Shown here piece after piece: positions 48,854 to 54,980 of a DNA stretch of 64,000 nt; position 1 is the first letter of the stretch, and the number at the start of each line of letters is the position of its first letter. A program made the position numbers and the translations under genes. Below the pieces are notes generated by a model. The model saw only the letters and a program-made list of their open reading frames with translations, had not been told where the DNA came from and did not search any database. Origin of the DNA: a virus; IMG/VR virus record IMGVR_UViG_3300047157_000105, positions 32,001 through 96,000 of that record; one strand, 5' to 3'.

Positions 48854-51160
48854 ATGACGTCTATTAACGTAACCAAGCGCAGTGGTGAAACTGAGCCATT
48901 TAACATTGACAAGATTCACCGAGTGCTTGAATGGGCTTGTCAAGATTTAGTAGGTGTATCAGTCTCTGAAATAGAGATGAGAGCCAATGTCCAAATATAT
49001 GAGAAGATGCGTTCGACATCTATCCATGATCTTCTAATCAAATCAACAGCGGAGCTTATTACTGAAGCTACACCTAACTATCAGACTGTTGCAGCTAGGC
49101 TAATCAATTATAAACTCAAGAAACTTGTCTATGGTGACAAGGACCCATGGGCATTAAAAGATATTATTGACCATAACATTGAGGCTGGAGTCTATGATCC
49201 CGATATATTAAACATGTATTCTGATGCTGAATTAGATTATATTAATGAACACATATTAGATCATTCAAGAGATGATGACTTCACATATGCTGGTATGGAG
49301 CAGATGAGATCGAAGTATCTTGTGCAGAATAGAAGTGATGGTACAATATATGAAACACCTCAGGTGCTTTATATTATGATTGCTATGACATTATTCGGTA
49401 AGTATAATGGTAGACGTATGAAGTTTGTAAGAGAATTTTATAACGCCATATCACAATTTTATATCTCATTACCAACACCTATTATGGCTGGTGTGAGAAC
49501 TCCAACAAGACAATTCTCATCATGTGTTGTATTAGAAACAAATGATTCACTTGACTCTATCAATGCAACATCAACATCAATCGTTAAATACATTTCAAAG
49601 AAAGCTGGATTAGGTATTAATGCTGGTAAGATCAGAGCAGTAGGATCACATATTGGTGATGGTTCAGTTGTTCACACTGGTCTTATACCATTCTTAAAGT
49701 TATTCCAAGCAAGTGTAAAGTCTTGTAGTCAAGGTGGAGTACGTGGTGGAGCAGCAACAGTTTATCTACCGGTGTGGCATTATGAATTCGAAGACTTAGT
49801 TGTCTTAAAGAATAATCGTGGTACGGATGAGACACGTGTACGTAACATGGATTATGCATTCCAATTCAATAAGCTGATGTATGAGAGATTATTAACTGGT
49901 GGGAACATAACTTTCTTCTCTCCTGATGATGTACCTGGATTATATGATGCATTCTTTGAGGATCAAGATTTATTCCAAGAGTTATATGAGAAGTATGAAA
50001 GGTCCCGCAAGATCCGTAAGAAGTCTTTGCCAGCCTTAGAAGTATTCTCTCAGTTCTTGACAGAGCGTAAAGAAACAGGACGAATCTATTTACAAAATGT
50101 AGATCACGCAAATACACATGGTGCATTCATCGAGAAGCAGGCCCCGATACACCAGTCGAATTTGTGTTGTGAAATTAATTTACCAAGTCATGGATTAGAA
50201 TCATACGATGATGCAAACAAAGGTGAGATCAGTTTATGTACTCTATCTGCAATCAATTGGGGATTAATTAATGATCCGAAGGACTTCGAGAAGTATTGTG
50301 ATTTAGCTATACGTTCTCTTGATGCTTTACTTGATTATCAAAACTATCCTATTGTTGCAGCTCAAAGATCTACCATGAATAGACGACCATTAGGTGTAGG
50401 TATTATTAACTTTGCATACTTCTTAGCAAAGAGAGGTTTAAAGTATGATGATGATGCTCTTGAAACAGTTGATGAATATGCAGAAGCATGGTCATACTAT
50501 TTAATTAAAGCGAGTGCTAATCTAGCAAAAGAGAGAGGAACCTGTTATAAAGTGTTAGAAACTAAATATGGGCATGGTATCTTGCCAATAGACACATATA
50601 AAAAAGAGGTTAACGAACTAGTCAAGCACAAAGAAAGAATGCCATGGAAATCTTTACGCGAACAGCTTAAGAAAACTGGTATACGTAACAGTACCATGAT
50701 GGCTATTATGCCAGCTGAAACATCAGCTCAAATCGGTAATGCTACAAATGGTATAGAACCACCTCGTGCACTTGTATCATATAAGCAATCCAAGGACGGA
50801 GTGATGGCACAAGTTGTACCACAAATACATAATCTTAAAAACAAATACGATTTACTATGGGATCAGCAAGGACCCGAAGGTTACTTAAAGATCATGGCAA
50901 TACTTCAGAAGTATGTCGACCAAGGTATATCAGTTAATACAAGTTATAATCCAGCACAGTATGAAGATAATAAAGTACCTATGTCAGAGATGATGAAGGA
51001 TCTTGTTACATTCTACAAATACGGAGGTAAACAATTATATTACTTTAATACAAATGATTTGACAAATGAAGATGAATCTTCTGATGAATTTGATAAATCT
51101 CGTGAAGACTTTGCAACACAAGAAGAGTATGATGACTATTGTGAAAGCTGCGTTTTATAG
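48854..51160 (+). CDS. nrdA: class Ia ribonucleotide reductase alpha subunit with ATP cone
   Basis: VTKRSG, QFSSC, SNLCCEI, LYY, C-terminal CESC. Confidence 0.98.
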   Translation: MTSINVTKRSGETEPFNIDKIHRVLEWACQDLVGVSVSEIEMRANVQIYEKMRSTSIHDLLIKSTAELITEATPNYQTVAARLINYKLKKLVYGDKDPWALKDIIDHNIEAGVYDPDILNMYSDAELDYINEHILDHSRDDDFTYAGMEQMRSKYLVQNRSDGTIYETPQVLYIMIAMTLFGKYNGRRMKFVREFYNAISQFYISLPTPIMAGVRTPTRQFSSCVVLETNDSLDSINATSTSIVKYISKKAGLGINAGKIRAVGSHIGDGSVVHTGLIPFLKLFQASVKSCSQGGVRGGAATVYLPVWHYEFEDLVVLKNNRGTDETRVRNMDYAFQFNKLMYERLLTGGNITFFSPDDVPGLYDAFFEDQDLFQELYEKYERSRKIRKKSLPALEVFSQFLTERKETGRIYLQNVDHANTHGAFIEKQAPIHQSNLCCEINLPSHGLESYDDANKGEISLCTLSAINWGLINDPKDFEKYCDLAIRSLDALLDYQNYPIVAAQRSTMNRRPLGVGIINFAYFLAKRGLKYDDDALETVDEYAEAWSYYLIKASANLAKERGTCYKVLETKYGHGILPIDTYKKEVNELVKHKERMPWKSLREQLKKTGIRNSTMMAIMPAETSAQIGNATNGIEPPRALVSYKQSKDGVMAQVVPQIHNLKNKYDLLWDQQGPEGYLKIMAILQKYVDQGISVNTSYNPAQYEDNKVPMSEMMKDLVTFYKYGGKQLYYFNTNDLTNEDESSDEFDKSREDFATQEEYDDYCESCVL

Positions 51161-51229
51161 AAGATTTTTCTACGTATGATACATTCTATAGAAAATTTTT
51201 ATCTTTTTTAAAAATAGTTCCATTTGCTA

Positions 51230-51294
51230 TGTACAAAGTATATAAATTATGTTATAATAGTTCCATGTTATCAAGATTAGGTTTGGTATAAATA
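51230..51294 (+). promoter_or_regulatory. tandem early-type promoter (51230-51258) and late promoter (51287-51294) upstream of the membrane-protein/tmRNA unit
   Basis: TGTACA-N17-TATAAT; TATAAATA. Confidence 0.75.
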
Positions 51295-51297
51295 ATT

Positions 51298-51441
51298 ATG
51301 GATTTATTAAATTACTTACTATTAGGGGTAGTTCTTACCCTCGGGGCCACAGGATTAATATCCGGGGCTATCTTCCCAATTTTCCTTGAACTGAATGATG
51401 AGCTAAATGAAAAGTTTAAGGACGAGAACCCTTCGAGATAA
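51298..51441 (+). CDS. small membrane protein, 47 aa (not in ORF track)
   Basis: MDLLNYLLLGVVLTLGATGLISGAIFPIFLELNDELNEKFKDENPSR*. Confidence 0.6.
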   Translation: MDLLNYLLLGVVLTLGATGLISGAIFPIFLELNDELNEKFKDENPSR

Positions 51442-51479
51442 GGCTAAACTACTTTTTATAAAACGACATAGGAGAATAT

Positions 51480-51707
51480 ATGTTAGATAAAATCACAAGC
51501 GGCGTTTCAGCTGCAACAGCGGTGGCAATGTCACTGATCGGTTTGGCAATTATGTTGCAAATCGTATTTGGTGGATCAGTACCTTTCTTAGGCGGTGACG
51601 TCATTGGTACAATTATTGGTATCGTAGCACAGCTAGGAGATGCTGGTTTGGTAGGTTTAATTTCTGCAGCGATTTTGTGGAAGTTACTATCACATGATGA
51701 TGCTTAA
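51480..51707 (+). CDS. small two/three-helix membrane protein
   Basis: Strong SD AGGAG; Gly-rich hydrophobic segments. Confidence 0.8.
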   Translation: MLDKITSGVSAATAVAMSLIGLAIMLQIVFGGSVPFLGGDVIGTIIGIVAQLGDAGLVGLISAAILWKLLSHDDA

Positions 51708-51995
51708 TAACATTCATTCAATAATGAAGTGAGCTAGATAACGACGTAAAGGTAAAAGTAGGAGCACTTAACACGCGGGTTCAAATCCCGCCTCCTCCAC
51801 CAAATAGATCTAAAATAGATTTATTTAATGGGGGAGATTCGGCATCGATTAGGTAGCAGAGCCGCTTGAGACTCGTCAGTCAACGAAGACTTTAAAATGA
51901 AAAATTAATCGGCAATCAGTCAGATTATTTACTAGCCGCCTAATGGCTAGTTGAGGTTTTCTTCCGGAGTTCCTTATCACCCAATACTCCGGATC
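51708..51995 (+). ncRNA. ssrA: circularly permuted (two-piece) tmRNA; outer ends approximate
   Basis: T-arm GCGGG-TTCAAAT-CCCGC plus CTCCTCC-A-CCA (ends 51802) precedes the 5' strand GGGGGAG (51830) with G3·U70; PK1 51873-51891; tag GNQSDYLLAA* 51911-51943. Confidence 0.92.
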
Positions 51996-52016
51996 TTCTT
52001 TTTTATACATACACAT

Positions 52017-52328
52017 ATGATAACCTTAACAGACAACGCCGCTGATAAATTAAAGACTCTGGTTACTGGTAGTAAACAGTTAAGAGTATTAGTTAAAGGT
52101 ACAGGCTGTTCTGGTATGGCATATCATTTAGAGTATAACATAATGCAAACAGATATGGATGACTTGTTTATTGTAAAAGATATTCCTATCGTAATTGATA
52201 AAAAATCACAAGTTTATGTTGAAGGTGCTGAGATAGACCATAAGACAAAAGGATTAAATGAAGGCTTTGAGTTTTCTAATCCTAAGGAAAAAGCAAGGTG
52301 TGGATGTGGTGAATCCTTCACTATGTGA
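52017..52328 (+). CDS. iscA: A-type Fe-S carrier IscA/HesB (start revised to ATG 52017)
   Basis: MITLTDNAA, GTGCSGMAY, NPKEKARCGCGESF. Confidence 0.95.
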   Translation: MITLTDNAADKLKTLVTGSKQLRVLVKGTGCSGMAYHLEYNIMQTDMDDLFIVKDIPIVIDKKSQVYVEGAEIDHKTKGLNEGFEFSNPKEKARCGCGESFTM

Positions 52329-52364
52329 TATGTACATTTAACTATATTATGATATAATATACAT

Positions 52365-52535
52365 ATGAGTATAATGAAAGAACCACTAGGTGATGGTACA
52401 GCAAGAGTCACCAAATTCGAAGACTATCAGAAATATAAATTTGACAATCCAGAAACAATGTGGATTGAGGATTATCCGTCAATTATATTTCCTGACTGCG
52501 TGAGAGATATACATATAACTGAGGATAAAGAATGA
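52365..52535 (+). CDS. hypothetical protein, 56 aa, leaderless (promoter 52331-52358; not in ORF track)
   Basis: ATG 6 nt after TATAAT; stop overlaps next ATG. Confidence 0.55.
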   Translation: MSIMKEPLGDGTARVTKFEDYQKYKFDNPETMWIEDYPSIIFPDCVRDIHITEDKE

Positions 52536-53056
52536 ATATATTTTATTTAGATAAAGATGCAAAGACCAGTGCAGAGATGCACCTTGACAAACACTGTAGT
52601 AAGATGCTTGTGGAATACGCACAGCTTATGTCTACAGCTCACCGTGTTCTTGACGGTACAGAGTATTATGACAAAAATAAAATTGGTTCAAAGATCAAAC
52701 GCTGGCGCCATGAGGAAGATGCACTATATAAAGCATCACATGTTAATCATCCGAGCAATGTGTGGCTTCGACAAAGTATAAATAATTACGCATTCCTCTA
52801 TGAGATGTGGTGCCATCTACACGATGAATTTGTTATACGCTATGGCAAAGATCATATGTCATTCGTAAAACTCAAAGAAGTACTAAAGAGCCCACCACGT
52901 AATTGTGGTGATAGTCCATTTACACAACCGACACAAGCCATGCCTGACGATGTCAAGCATAGTGATAGCATTACTGCCTATAGAAATTACTATAAGAAGT
53001 ATAAGCAACATATCGCAGCATGGAAGACGGTTACACCCAGCTGGTATACTGTATGA
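52532..53056 (+). CDS. pyrimidine-dimer DNA glycosylase/DenV-family protein
   Basis: MNIFYLD…HLDKHCSKMLVEYAQLMS; HVNHPS; QAMPD. Confidence 0.8.
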   Translation: MNIFYLDKDAKTSAEMHLDKHCSKMLVEYAQLMSTAHRVLDGTEYYDKNKIGSKIKRWRHEEDALYKASHVNHPSNVWLRQSINNYAFLYEMWCHLHDEFVIRYGKDHMSFVKLKEVLKSPPRNCGDSPFTQPTQAMPDDVKHSDSITAYRNYYKKYKQHIAAWKTVTPSWYTV

Positions 53057-54129
53057 AAAAAAGCGTATTTAAAATAAACACAAAAGGACATCTAGATAAA
53101 AATTTATTCTTTGATGAAGGTGTCGACATTGCAAGATATGACGTAGTCAAATACTCGTCTTTGCAAAAGCTATATGAAAAGATGTTATCGTTTTACTGGA
53201 CCCCTGATGAGATCGATGTCACAAAAGACAAGATTGACTTTGGTAAGTTAACAAAGAATGAGCAACATATATTTACATCCAATCTCAAAAGACAAATCTT
53301 ATTAGACTCAGTACAGGGCAGATCACCTGACTTGGCTTTATTGCCACTTGCAAGTAATCCTGAACTTGAGTTACTCATTGAGACATGGGCATTCTTTGAG
53401 ACTATTCACTCGAGATCGTATACTCACGTGATCAGAAACGTGTATCCTAATCCGTCAAAGGTCTTTGATGAGATTACTTCGATACCAGCAATCTCCGAGT
53501 GTGGTAATGCAATCTCAGAACATTATGACAACCTGATCAATTATAAGGGCCCTCACGGTAGCTATACGCATAAAAAACTGTTATATCTCTGTTTAGTAAG
53601 TATATACATATTAGAAGGAATAAGGTTTTATGTGAGCTTTGCATGTTCATGGGCATTCGCAGAACTTAAGCAAATGGAAGGTAATGCAAAGATTATTAAG
53701 TTAATTGCAAGAGATGAGAACTTACATCTTGCAGCATCGCTAAATATTATACGAACTCTTATCAAAGAAGATGAGGATTATGTAAAGATTAAAGATGAAA
53801 CACATAATGAAGTTATGGCTTTATTTGAAGATGCATTAGTACAAGAAGAAGATTGGTGTGATTACCTATTTGGTAATGGTTCAATGATTGGACTGAATGC
53901 AGGTTTGTTAAAAGAATATGTACGTTGGATTGGTGCAAAGAGAATTAAGAGTCTTAGTTATACCGTTCCATTTTCTGTACATCAGCATAACCCACTACCA
54001 TGGACAGAGAAGTGGATAAGTGGCGGAGCAGTACAAGTTGCTCCACAAGAAACAGAAATAACGTCTTATGTACTCGGTGGAGTTACACATGACGTTGATA
54101 CTAAATCATTCGAGGGATTAAGTTTATGA
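53053..54129 (+). CDS. nrdB: ribonucleotide reductase beta subunit (start revised to ATG 53053)
   Basis: FYWTPDE, ETIHSRSY, EGIRFYVSF, RDENLH, VAPQETE. Confidence 0.97.
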   Translation: MKKSVFKINTKGHLDKNLFFDEGVDIARYDVVKYSSLQKLYEKMLSFYWTPDEIDVTKDKIDFGKLTKNEQHIFTSNLKRQILLDSVQGRSPDLALLPLASNPELELLIETWAFFETIHSRSYTHVIRNVYPNPSKVFDEITSIPAISECGNAISEHYDNLINYKGPHGSYTHKKLLYLCLVSIYILEGIRFYVSFACSWAFAELKQMEGNAKIIKLIARDENLHLAASLNIIRTLIKEDEDYVKIKDETHNEVMALFEDALVQEEDWCDYLFGNGSMIGLNAGLLKEYVRWIGAKRIKSLSYTVPFSVHQHNPLPWTEKWISGGAVQVAPQETEITSYVLGGVTHDVDTKSFEGLSL

Positions 54130-54371: not shown

Positions 54372-54562
54372 TATGTCATGAATGTAATAGTCCAGAGTTT
54401 GATGTTACAGTTAAAGAAGAGTTAGGCTACGATAATAATCCAATTGATCTTGGGTTAGAAGTAACTAATTGTCCTTTTTGTGGTGCTAATTTAGAATGGG
54501 CAGAGAGAGGTGGATTTGATGCAGAAGAATACGATCACGATGAAAACAGACTGGACCTATAA
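54368..54562 (+). CDS. zinc-ribbon protein
   Basis: CHEC…CPFCG. Confidence 0.7.
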   Translation: MICHECNSPEFDVTVKEELGYDNNPIDLGLEVTNCPFCGANLEWAERGGFDAEEYDHDENRLDL

Positions 54563-54980
54563 TGGACAGAGATTTACGCCTACTGATGTTGGCGATTATT
54601 ACGGGTTTGTTTATAGGATTACTAATCTCACTAATGGCATGGACTATATTGGGAGAAAGTATTTTAAAACTATAAGAAAGCTCAAGCCGCTTGCGGGGTT
54701 TAAGAGAAAACGTAAGGTCACAAAAGAAACAGATTGGCAAGAGTATTGGGGTTCAAGTAATAGACTCAATGAAGATATAGAGAAGTTAGGTAAAGAAAAC
54801 TTTAAACGTGAGATCATTTGTTTGTGTAAGACTCGAGGTGACACAAACTATATGGAAGCAAAGATACAATTCGATGAGAATGTATTATTGAATGAGAACA
54901 ATTATAACGGTATTATAGCGGTAAAGATAGGAGTAGGTTCAGTTAAAAATTTAGCTGAAGAGTATGTACATCCGCAGTAA
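54540..54980 (+). CDS. GIY-YIG endonuclease, endonuclease II (DenA)-like
   Basis: GFVY…YIGRK, YWGSS, FKREII, NYMEAK; next to nrd genes. Confidence 0.8.
   Translation: MKTDWTYNGQRFTPTDVGDYYGFVYRITNLTNGMDYIGRKYFKTIRKLKPLAGFKRKRKVTKETDWQEYWGSSNRLNEDIEKLGKENFKREIICLCKTRGDTNYMEAKIQFDENVLLNENNYNGIIAVKIGVGSVKNLAEEYVHPQ

What the first reader, a model, noticed from the sequence alone, without database searches (positions are those of the whole stretch)
51708..51995. Phage-encoded circularly permuted (two-piece) tmRNA with an atypical tag
Seen: the tRNA-like 3' end (T-arm 51775-51791, CTCCTCC-A-CCA to 51802) comes BEFORE the 5' end (GGGGGAG at 51830). They form a 7-bp acceptor stem with the G3·U70 alanine determinant and are separated by a 27-nt hairpin-forming spacer (AATAGATCTA/TAGATTTATT). 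TTAGGT (51849-51854) can pair with ACTTAA (51766-51771) as helix 2. An H-type pseudoknot (TCGT/ACGA, AGTC/GACT) precedes a resume context AAAATTAATC and the tag GNQSDYLLAA*. Its stop sits in the hairpin ACTAGCC/GGCTAGT, followed by a second pseudoknot (TGAGG/CCTTA, TCCGGAGT/ACTCCGGA). Established: permuted ssrA occurs in alphaproteobacteria, some marine cyanobacteria and some betaproteobacteria; the phage tmRNAs I know of are one-piece. Inference: a compact, possibly independently permuted viral tmRNA with a Gly resume codon that rescues ribosomes during infection, for example under host ribonuclease defence. No smpB is visible in the window, so it would rely on host SmpB.
Basis: partly seen in the sequence, partly recalled or inferred. 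Interest (0 to 1): 0.88.

Follow-up and report, generated by a model that had tools for sequence, protein, structure and literature searches.

The report
Two-piece tmRNA gene in marine phage
An uncultured marine T4-like phage really does carry a back-to-front (two-piece) gene for tmRNA, the RNA that frees stalled ribosomes, but such genes were already published for this phage group in 2022, so this is a well-supported new family member rather than a new kind of thing.

Summary
ARAGORN calls a permuted tmRNA at 51710-52034 with tag GNQSDYLLAA*. Rfam's tmRNA_permuted model scores 68.5 bits against a cut-off of 47. The window is a 140.5-kb IMG/VR virus record, a T4-like myovirus related to pelagiphages HTVC008M and Mosig and to OM43 phage Melnitz.

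About 60 marine viral contigs carry the same gene in 40 sequence variants. Across them the fold is 97.8% paired, against 33-47% in slid controls, and 17 pairs show compensatory changes. The tag frame is kept in every variant.

The novelty premise fails. Buchholz et al. 2022 (PMC9004378) reported two-piece tmRNA in Melnitz, in 53 phage genomes and in 17 of 47 Melnitz-like contigs. This scan has also found phage two-piece tmRNAs repeatedly on other DNA.

What differs here:
- The RNA fails the alpha model that the isolates' tmRNAs pass, and it sits nearest the betaproteobacterial type.
- It lies between nrdA and nrdB, not behind the PD-(D/E)XK nuclease gene.
- It has a Gly resume codon and no glutamine riboswitch.

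Independent permutation has no support. Maturation into two pieces and activity remain untested.

The parts
51230..51258 (+). sigma-70-like promoter-like site (TGTACA, 17 nt, TATAAT, with TG extension), a candidate early promoter of the unit
   Evidence: 10 of 12 matches. It is a consensus match only. The scan found no promoter-like or terminator-like site between the upstream ORFs and the tmRNA.
51287..51294 (+). TATAAATA, the T4-type late-promoter motif, 3 nt before the first small ORF
   Evidence: Of 19 copies in the window, 18 are on the coding strand. Only 3 of 100 shuffles give 19 or more copies.
51298..51707 (+). Two small hydrophobic ORFs (47 aa, 51298-51441; 75 aa, 51480-51707) directly upstream. 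The second stops 3 nt before ARAGORN's tmRNA start.
   Evidence: One search lists the ORFs. Neither has a Pfam match. The end of the 75-aa ORF directly abuts the tmRNA in family members.
51713..51728 (+). Small leader hairpin TTCAT/ATGAA. Whether it belongs to the tmRNA is unclear.
   Evidence: The sequence is nearly invariant in the family, so covariation says nothing for or against it. L038 breaks the stem.
51743..51771 (+). 5'-side strands of helix 2 in the acceptor piece: 2c (51743-46), 2b (51756-58), 2a (51764-71)
   Evidence: Helix 2a is 99.7% paired and has two pairs with compensatory changes (51767:51853, 51771:51849). Helix 2b has A-U changing to G-C in 9 members. Helix 2c is invariant, partly because those bases were in the search motif.
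51775..51791 (+). T-arm (5-bp stem, 7-nt loop TTCAAAT)
   Evidence: 100% paired, and 3 of 5 pairs carry compensatory changes.
51792..51802 (+). Acceptor-stem 3' strand CTCCTCC, discriminator A, then CCA
   Evidence: The stem is invariant in 40 members. Seven members encode CCT instead of CCA.
51803..51829 (+). Intervening segment (27 nt) with a hairpin. It is presumed to be removed during maturation.
   Evidence: Its length is 26-133 nt across the family. The outer hairpin pairs are 100% paired, and 4 of 5 carry compensatory changes.
51830..51836 (+). Acceptor-stem 5' strand GGGGGAG. G51832 pairs with U51796 as G3.U70.
51849..51877 (+). 3'-side strands of helix 2 in the coding piece: 2a (51849-57), 2b (51865-67), 2c (51874-77)
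51878..51891 (+). Hairpin AGTC/GACT after helix 2. A tertiary pair C51884:G51899 is possible and would be a minimal PK1.
   Evidence: U-A changes to C-G in 14 members; the only two members with G at 51884 (L034, L039) are the only two with C at the position of 51899.
51911..51943 (+). Tag reading frame GGC...TAA, encoding (A)GNQSDYLLAA*
   Evidence: In one search the frame is kept in all 40 variants. Tags are 9 or 10 codons, all three stop codons occur, Gly, Leu and Ala show synonymous changes, and every tag ends in LAA.
51906..51927 (+). Possible weak helix TAATC/GATTA around the resume codon
   Evidence: 100% paired. One pair changes U-A to A-U in 3 related members. The evidence is thin.
51931..51951 (+). 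Hairpin that holds the stop codon (ACTAGCC/GGCTAGT)
   Evidence: 97% paired, and 3 pairs carry compensatory changes (14, 11 and 7 members).
51952..52004 (+). 3' H-type pseudoknot (51952-56/51972-76 and 51963-70/51986-93) whose second stem plus U-tract looks like an intrinsic terminator
   Evidence: Stem 1 is 100% paired, with U-A changing to C-G in 3 members. Seven of the 8 pairs of stem 2 hold in all 40 members. The outer pair 51963:51993 forms in only 5 of 40, the window among them. The motif CCTT[A/G]TCACCCAA is shared with bacterial beta-type tmRNAs.
52017..52328 (+). IscA/HesB-type Fe-S assembly gene directly downstream. It served as the anchor for finding relatives.
   Evidence: PF01521, 57.6 bits; 21 related viral loci.

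Best explanation
This is a functional, phage-encoded, circularly permuted ssrA gene. It belongs to a conserved family found in uncultured marine T4-like myoviruses of the pelagiphage/Melnitz group.

Shown: the gene order, the fold, the conserved tag frame and the phage context.

Inferred mechanism:
1. The gene is transcribed as the 3' part of a short unit. The unit starts at the promoter-like sites at 51230 and 51287, includes two small membrane-protein ORFs, and ends at the terminator-like stem and U-tract near 52000.
2. RNase P cuts 5' of G51830. 3' trimming removes the spacer hairpin back to CCA at 51802. Members that encode CCT would need the CCA-adding enzyme.
3. The acceptor piece and the coding piece stay together through the 7-bp acceptor stem and helices 2a-2c.
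4. Host AlaRS charges the RNA (G3.U70, discriminator A). Host SmpB and EF-Tu deliver it to stalled ribosomes.
5. Translation resumes at GGC 51911 and adds (A)GNQSDYLLAA. The LAA end marks the protein for host ClpXP-type proteolysis.

The likely benefit to the phage is to keep ribosomes free, and perhaps to recycle amino acids, during infection.

Origin: most likely capture of a bacterial two-piece tmRNA nearest the betaproteobacterial type. This would be separate from the alpha-type tmRNA that isolates Melnitz, Mosig and HTVC008M carry at another locus.
For: - Identity: ARAGORN permuted tmRNA. RF04321 scores 68.5 bits against a cut-off of 47 over the full model.
- Phage context.
- Selection on structure: 40 distinct homologues, 97.8% paired against 33-47% when slid, 17 compensatory pairs, 0 of 500 shuffles as good. 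The precursor folds with z = -5.06.
- Selection on the tag as a coding frame: one-codon length change, all three stops, synonymous changes, an invariant LAA end, and GGC or GGA for Gly.
- Spacer behaves as discarded sequence: 26-133 nt between invariant flanks.
- One transcription unit: promoter-like sites only upstream of the small ORFs, and a terminator-like 3' stem. One RNA-library contig spans 51400-51939, which is weak support.
- No smpB in the record.
- Beta-type affinity: RF01850 scores 61.8 bits end to end, against 31.4 bits local for alpha and nothing for cyano. Family member L035 passes the beta cut-off, 88.9 against 84. The family's own model R1 ranks a genuine beta-type bacterial tmRNA first outside the family, at 62.3 bits, against 44.3, 36.8 and 12.0 for the alpha-type phage copies and 28.6 for an alphaproteobacterium.
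- Geometry matches the beta type: 325 nt with the tag at 202-234, against 326 nt with the tag at 203-235 in L127.
- Shared local motifs ACTCGTCAG and CCTT[A/G]TCACCCAA.
- Different locus and model class from the isolates.
Against: - No experiment or raw-read data show the two mature pieces, alanylation, SmpB binding or tagging. The RNA runs were available only as contigs, which cannot show ends and may include DNA.
- The beta-type affinity is weak. Genuine beta-type tmRNAs score 169-296 bits on RF01850, and ordinary one-piece tmRNAs reach about 50 bits. Overall identity to every lineage is 45-50%.
- No bacterial donor was found.
- The host is unknown, so compatibility with host SmpB and AlaRS is assumed.
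- Helix 2c and the acceptor stem never vary, so covariation says nothing about them. The 5' strand of helix 2c was part of the motif used to collect two thirds of the loci.
- A classical PK1 is not demonstrated.
Confidence: 0.85

Rival explanations
1. The gene is the same acquisition as the alpha-type tmRNA of Melnitz, Mosig and HTVC008M. It moved to the nrdA-nrdB interval and then diverged fast, so the beta-like scores are convergence or noise.
For: The phages are related. Each genome has exactly one tmRNA. HTVC008M and Mosig also score 56 and 51 bits on the beta model and 44 and 37 bits on the family model R1. Identity to all lineages is similarly low. Mosig's predicted tag also begins with Gly.
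Against: The isolates pass the alpha model full-length at 107, 84 and 68 bits, but the window gets only a 31-bit local match. R1 ranks a bacterial beta-type tmRNA above all three isolates. The gene length, the tag position and two local motifs match the beta type. The locus is different.
Confidence: 0.2
2. The RNA is made but its main role is not ribosome rescue. For example, it might selectively tag host proteins for amino-acid recycling, or act as a decoy or replacement when the host's own tmRNA or tRNAs are attacked.
For: Buchholz et al. raise selective tagging as an option. The phage lacks smpB and so relies on host factors. The tag differs from bacterial beta-type tags of the form ANDExFAxAA.
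Against: All structural and coding features needed for ordinary trans-translation are conserved. Nothing in the sequence points to a different activity. These roles also still require trans-translation.
Confidence: 0.12
3. The permutation arose independently within phages from a one-piece tmRNA.
For: No bacterial tmRNA with the same T-arm and acceptor signature was found among representative genomes. The family passes no lineage-specific model at the window's score.
Against: The helix set, order and dimensions are those of known two-piece tmRNAs. The gene aligns end to end to RF04321 and RF01850. One member passes the beta cut-off. The 3' pseudoknot motif is shared with beta-type bacteria.
Confidence: 0.04
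4. It is a non-functional remnant, such as an attachment-site fragment or a decaying captured gene.
For: Fragments of ssrA do occur in phages. L006 carries only the 3' T-arm and acceptor 28-mer.
Against: The gene is full-length. It occurs in 40 variants with compensatory changes in nine of the eleven helices tested, and its tag frame is preserved.
Confidence: 0.02

Closest known systems
Two-piece tmRNA (ssrA) of Methylophilales phage Melnitz and Pelagibacter phages Mosig and HTVC008M (Buchholz et al. 2022, PMC9004378)
   Same: All are phage-encoded, circularly permuted tmRNAs in marine T4-like myoviruses of the same group, with one copy per genome. The tags end in LAA. Mosig's predicted tag also starts with Gly.
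   Different: - The isolates' tmRNAs pass the alpha_tmRNA model (68-107 bits). This one does not (31 bits local).
- In the isolates the gene lies after the PD-(D/E)XK nuclease gene. Here it lies between nrdA and nrdB, next to an IscA-like gene.
- No glutamine riboswitch is found here, whereas one is reported for Melnitz and Mosig.
- This gene is shorter: 325 nt against 339-453 nt.
Betaproteobacterial two-piece tmRNA (Rfam RF01850; Sharkady and Williams 2004, as cited in PMC9004378)
   Same: The element order is the same. The length and tag position are nearly the same: 325 nt with the tag at 202-234, against 326 nt with the tag at 203-235. Both have a 10-codon tag ending in AA, a hairpin after helix 2 with ACTCGTCAG, and a 3' pseudoknot motif CCTTGTCACCCAAG. 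They are each other's best cross-lineage model scores.
   Different: Genuine members score 169-296 bits. The window scores 61.8, below the cut-off of 84. The resume codon is Gly rather than Ala. The tag is GNQSDYLLAA against ANDExFAxAA. The gene is AT-rich, and the carrier is a phage.
Alphaproteobacterial two-piece tmRNA (Caulobacter type; Keiler, Shapiro and Williams 2000, as cited in PMC9004378; Rfam RF01849)
   Same: The principle is the same: the acceptor piece is encoded before the coding piece, the segment between them is removed, and the two pieces are held together by base pairing.
   Different: Only the T-arm and acceptor match the alpha model. An alphaproteobacterial example scores 28.6 bits on the family model.

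Membership tests
tmRNA (SsrA) | tRNA-Ala-like domain: 7-bp acceptor stem with G3.U70, discriminator A, CCA end, and a T-arm with a 7-nt T-loop | tested here: met
   The acceptor stem is 51792-98/51830-36 with G51832.U51796, followed by A51799 and CCA 51800-02. The T-arm is 100% paired with 3 compensatory pairs.
tmRNA (SsrA) | Long helix 2 that joins the tRNA-like domain to the mRNA-like domain | tested here: met
   Helices 2a and 2b are supported by compensatory changes. Helix 2c is invariant.
tmRNA (SsrA) | Short internal reading frame with no start codon that ends in a hydrophobic degron and an in-frame stop | tested here: met
   GNQSDYLLAA*, with the frame and the LAA end kept in all 40 variants and with synonymous changes.
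tmRNA (SsrA) | Pseudoknot PK1 between helix 2 and the resume codon | tested here: inconclusive
The hairpin 51878-91 is supported. A loop pair 51884:51899 swaps C:G to G:C in two unrelated members, which would give at most a minimal pseudoknot.
tmRNA (SsrA) | Alanylation, SmpB binding and trans-translation activity | not testable with these tools
   No biochemical data exist. No smpB is found in the phage record.
Permuted (two-piece) tmRNA, Rfam RF04321 | The 3' acceptor strand with CCA is encoded upstream of the 5' acceptor strand, and the score passes the curated cut-off | tested here: met
   68.5 bits against 47, model positions 1-213. ARAGORN flags the gene as permuted.
Permuted (two-piece) tmRNA, Rfam RF04321 | The mature RNA exists as two separate pieces after the intervening segment is removed | not testable with these tools
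   Only contigs of RNA runs were available, and they cannot show ends. Indirect support: the spacer varies from 26 to 133 nt between invariant flanks.
beta_tmRNA, Rfam RF01850 | Score at or above the curated cut-off of 84 bits | tested here: not met
   The window scores 61.8 bits. One family member, L035, scores 88.9. Genuine members score 169-296 bits and one-piece tmRNAs reach about 50.
alpha_tmRNA, Rfam RF01849 | Score at or above the curated cut-off of 50 bits over the full model | tested here: not met
   The window gets 31.4 bits on positions 90-166 only. The phage isolates score 68-107 bits full-length.
cyano_tmRNA, Rfam RF01851 | Any match to the model | tested here: not met
   No match at E up to 10.
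Melnitz-type ssrA with a glutamine riboswitch | A glnA-type riboswitch in the 3' part of the gene | tested here: not met
   The only family that reaches its cut-off in the whole window is tmRNA_permuted. No glutamine riboswitch appears at E up to 10 in 50500-53500.

The most novel reading that the evidence does not exclude
Marine pelagiphage/Melnitz-type myoviruses captured two-piece tmRNA genes at least twice from different bacterial lineages. The isolates carry an alpha-type copy behind the PD-(D/E)XK nuclease gene. This uncultured clade carries a beta-like copy between nrdA and nrdB. The discarded spacer of the second family also serves as a slot for small genes. If so, tmRNA type could serve as a marker of past host switches between bacterial classes.
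Probability: 0.45. Interest if true: 0.45.

Novelty: new member of a known kind. Interest (0 to 1): 0.3.

Why it matters
The finding turns a sequence-only guess into a well-supported annotation. It gives a 40-variant alignment and a base-pair-level model for a phage tmRNA family that two of the three lineage-specific Rfam models miss, and that ARAGORN failed to call in 12 of the 19 anchored loci that carry the gene.

It also adds a second tmRNA type and a second locus to a phage group in which tmRNA type has been used to argue for a host switch between SAR11 and OM43 (PMC9004378). That argument therefore needs care.

It does not change what is known in principle. Phage-encoded two-piece tmRNAs are published, and what they do during infection is still untested.

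Tried and rejected
- **Exact 28-mer of T-arm and acceptor in viral contigs.** There was one hit, L006. It holds only the 3' fragment in an unrelated, GC-richer contig, and ARAGORN finds no tmRNA there. It is probably an attachment-site remnant and is not a homologue.
- **Degenerate T-arm/acceptor 26-mer in 185,579 representative genomes.** There were 27 hits. The 13 I checked hold tRNA genes (mostly tRNA-Ser and tRNA-Ala at the match), nothing callable, or unrelated one-piece tmRNAs. No donor was found.
- **Family-level sample around the best beta-type bacterium with model R1.** Nothing scored above 62 bits.
- **Glutamine riboswitch.** None was found.
- **Tag strings in the supplement of PMC9004378.** The tables list permuted tmRNAs but give no tags, so I cannot tell whether this family was among their 17 contigs.
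- **RNA-library contigs.** Contigs of three studies stop at 51767-69 and resume at 51827-72, and one contig spans 51400-51939. The breaks fall at the conserved T-arm, where assemblies branch, and no DNA run was laid beside them. I draw nothing from them about processing.
- The first structure string had the terminator stem one base out of register, corrected. The conclusion rests on the column counts.
- **Unpublished genome.** No claim in this report rests on G030, which one search flagged as unpublished.

Full report
**What is there.** ARAGORN finds one RNA gene in the 64-kb window. It is a permuted tmRNA at 51710-52034 with the tag GNQSDYLLAA*. Rfam finds one family above its curated cut-off in the whole window: tmRNA_permuted (RF04321) at 51742-51943, with 68.5 bits against 47, E 4.6e-11, over the full model.

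The T-arm is at 51775-91. The acceptor 3' strand, discriminator A and CCA end at 51802. A 27-nt hairpin spacer follows, and GGGGGAG starts at 51830, with G51832.U51796 as the G3.U70 pair. The precursor folds far better than shuffled sequence (z = -5.06, 0 of 200 shuffles as good).

**Context.** The window is bases 32001-96000 of a 140.5-kb IMG/VR virus record. All long ORFs lie on one strand. They include the terminase large subunit, tail sheath, portal, major head protein, a T4-type DNA polymerase, a DnaB-like helicase and NrdA. The only nucleotide-level relatives among deposited phages are Pelagibacter phages HTVC008M and Mosig and Methylophilales phage Melnitz, at 70-75% identity over one gene.

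The gene order around the tmRNA is as follows:
- nrdA, 48854-51160
- two small hydrophobic ORFs, 51298-51441 and 51480-51707
- the tmRNA
- an IscA-type gene, 52017-52328
- a conserved 174-aa gene
- nrdB, 53020-54129

A sigma-70-like site (51230-58) and a T4-type late motif TATAAATA (51287-94) precede the small ORFs. No promoter-like or terminator-like site separates them from the tmRNA. The last tmRNA stem is followed by a U-tract. So the tmRNA is probably the 3' part of a short transcription unit. The phage record has no SmpB.

**A family, and selection on it.** I anchored a search on the IscA-like protein and found 21 viral loci. Nineteen carry the RNA directly upstream: 18 reach the RF04321 cut-off among the 20 loci scanned, and L038 was confirmed by sequence and by the family model. 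ARAGORN sees only 7 of them. An invariant 5' motif then found 60 marine viral contigs, which give 40 distinct sequences.

On this alignment my fold has 61 pairs in 11 helices. It is 97.8% paired, against 33-47% when the partners are slid by 1-3 columns. Seventeen pairs show changes on both sides, and no shuffle of 500 reaches the observed values. Compensatory changes support these elements:
- the T-arm
- helix 2b
- the outer pairs of the spacer hairpin
- the hairpin after helix 2
- the stop-codon hairpin
- more weakly, the helix around the resume codon and the outermost pair of the terminator stem

The acceptor stem and helix 2c never vary, so covariation says nothing about them.

G51885 is A in 30 of 40 members with no compensating change, and those bases of the 5' strand are used by helix 2c. 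A tertiary pair C51884:G51899 swaps to G:C in two unrelated members (L034 and L039). That is the only hint of a PK1.

**The tag is a real reading frame.** In all 40 variants the frame that starts at the Gly codon is open and ends in LAA followed by a stop. Tags are 9 or 10 codons long. TAA, TAG and TGA all occur. The Gly codon is GGC or GGA, and the Leu and Ala codons vary synonymously. Variants include GKNDYLLAA, GNQNDYLLAA, GNDSVYALAA and GNQSDYALAA. The tag is therefore ordinary at its degron end. The Gly resume codon is unusual but not unique, because ARAGORN's tag for Mosig is GEDNFALAA.

**The spacer.** The segment between CCA and G1 is 26, 27, 28, 38, 47, 51, 63 or 133 nt long, between invariant flanks. 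That is what is expected of a segment removed during maturation. Seven members encode CCT instead of CCA, and this base covaries with its partner at the 3' end of the spacer hairpin. So the hairpin reaches into the CCA, and these members would need CCA repair.

**Known or new.** Buchholz et al. 2022 (PMC9004378) report:
- a two-piece ssrA in Melnitz
- 53 two-piece tmRNAs among 402 tmRNA-bearing phage genomes, 50 of them marine or aquatic
- permuted tmRNAs in 17 of 47 Melnitz-like contigs

I confirmed permuted tmRNAs in Melnitz, Mosig and HTVC008M, at 113, 94 and 91 bits on RF04321. This scan's earlier notes also hold many phage two-piece tmRNAs on other DNA, including this family in another genome.

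**How this one differs.**

| Model | Window | Family member L035 | Phage isolates | Genuine beta-type bacteria | Alphaproteobacterium L125 |
|---|---|---|---|---|---|
| alpha RF01849 (cut-off 50) | 31.4 bits, local only | not scored | 107, 84, 68 bits, full-length | not scored | not scored |
| beta RF01850 (cut-off 84) | 61.8 bits, end to end | 88.9 bits | 25-56 bits | 169-296 bits | not scored |
| cyano RF01851 | no match | not scored | not scored | not scored | not scored |
| family core model R1 | training set | training set | 44.3, 36.8, 12.0 bits | 62.3 bits full-length (L129); 45.7 and 44.4 bits local (L128, L127) | 28.6 bits |

Ordinary one-piece tmRNAs reach about 50 bits on the beta model.

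Gene length and tag position match the beta type almost exactly. Two local motifs, ACTCGTCAG and CCTT[A/G]TCACCCAA, are shared with the beta type.

Even so, overall identity to every lineage is only 45-50%. No bacterial genome shares the T-arm and acceptor signature in a permuted tmRNA. No sampled relative of the best beta-type bacterium comes closer.

I conclude that the family is nearest the beta type, that it is distant from all sampled bacteria, and that its donor is unknown. Because it is also at a different locus from the isolates' tmRNA and lacks their glutamine riboswitch, a second capture is more likely than relocation followed by divergence. This is not settled. Nothing suggests an independent permutation.

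**Expression.** Six marine metatranscriptome runs hold 39-61% of the sampled words of the 1-kb stretch around the gene. Contigs from four of them, laid on the locus, cover most of it, and one contig spans 51400-51939. Contigs cannot show ends or strand, and DNA may be present in RNA libraries. This is weak support for transcription and says nothing about processing.

**Verdict.** This is a new, well-characterised member of a published kind. Function is inferred from conservation only.

Noticed in passing
L038:2185-2337 (also L041, L042, L057, L073, L075); free-standing copy at L030:2374-2529: In six family members the tmRNA spacer is 133 nt and holds a 50-codon CxxC...CxxC zinc-ribbon ORF. The last 9 sense codons and the stop codon of this ORF overlap the tmRNA's 5' acceptor strand and helix 2a. 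The same small gene stands alone upstream of the IscA-like gene in L030, which has no tmRNA. Pfam gives only sub-threshold zinc-ribbon matches. Earlier notes of this scan describe genes in phage tmRNA spacers on other DNA.
   Followed up: partly
window 51802 with 51826; family members L018, L019, L055, L058, L063, L071, L087: Seven of 40 family members encode CCT instead of CCA at the acceptor end. The change covaries with the base opposite it in the spacer hairpin (A-U changes to U-A). Selection therefore seems to act on the precursor hairpin rather than on an encoded CCA.
   Followed up: partly
L018-L038: ARAGORN called the tmRNA in only 7 of the 19 loci that carry it. The other 12 are called by Rfam RF04321 or, for L038, by the family model. 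Routine annotation will therefore often miss this family.
   Followed up: yes
L006:2677-2704 (IMGVR_UViG_3300020477_000122): An unrelated, GC-richer viral contig carries only the 3' T-arm, acceptor and CCA 28-mer, identical to the window's, and has no tmRNA body. It looks like an attachment-site remnant of a phage that integrates into an ssrA gene with this 3' end.
   Followed up: partly
window 54510-54980: A SegE-type GIY-YIG homing endonuclease gene (PF19835, 135 bits) sits just after nrdB. This is a classic site for T4-type mobile endonucleases.
   Followed up: no
window 51298-51707: Two small hydrophobic ORFs (47 and 75 aa) with no Pfam family precede the tmRNA in the same apparent transcription unit. 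The end of the 75-aa ORF abuts the tmRNA throughout the family.
   Followed up: partly
run X14: One run labelled as a freshwater metagenome holds 91% of the sampled words of this marine phage stretch. I did not lay it on the locus, so I draw nothing from it.
   Followed up: no
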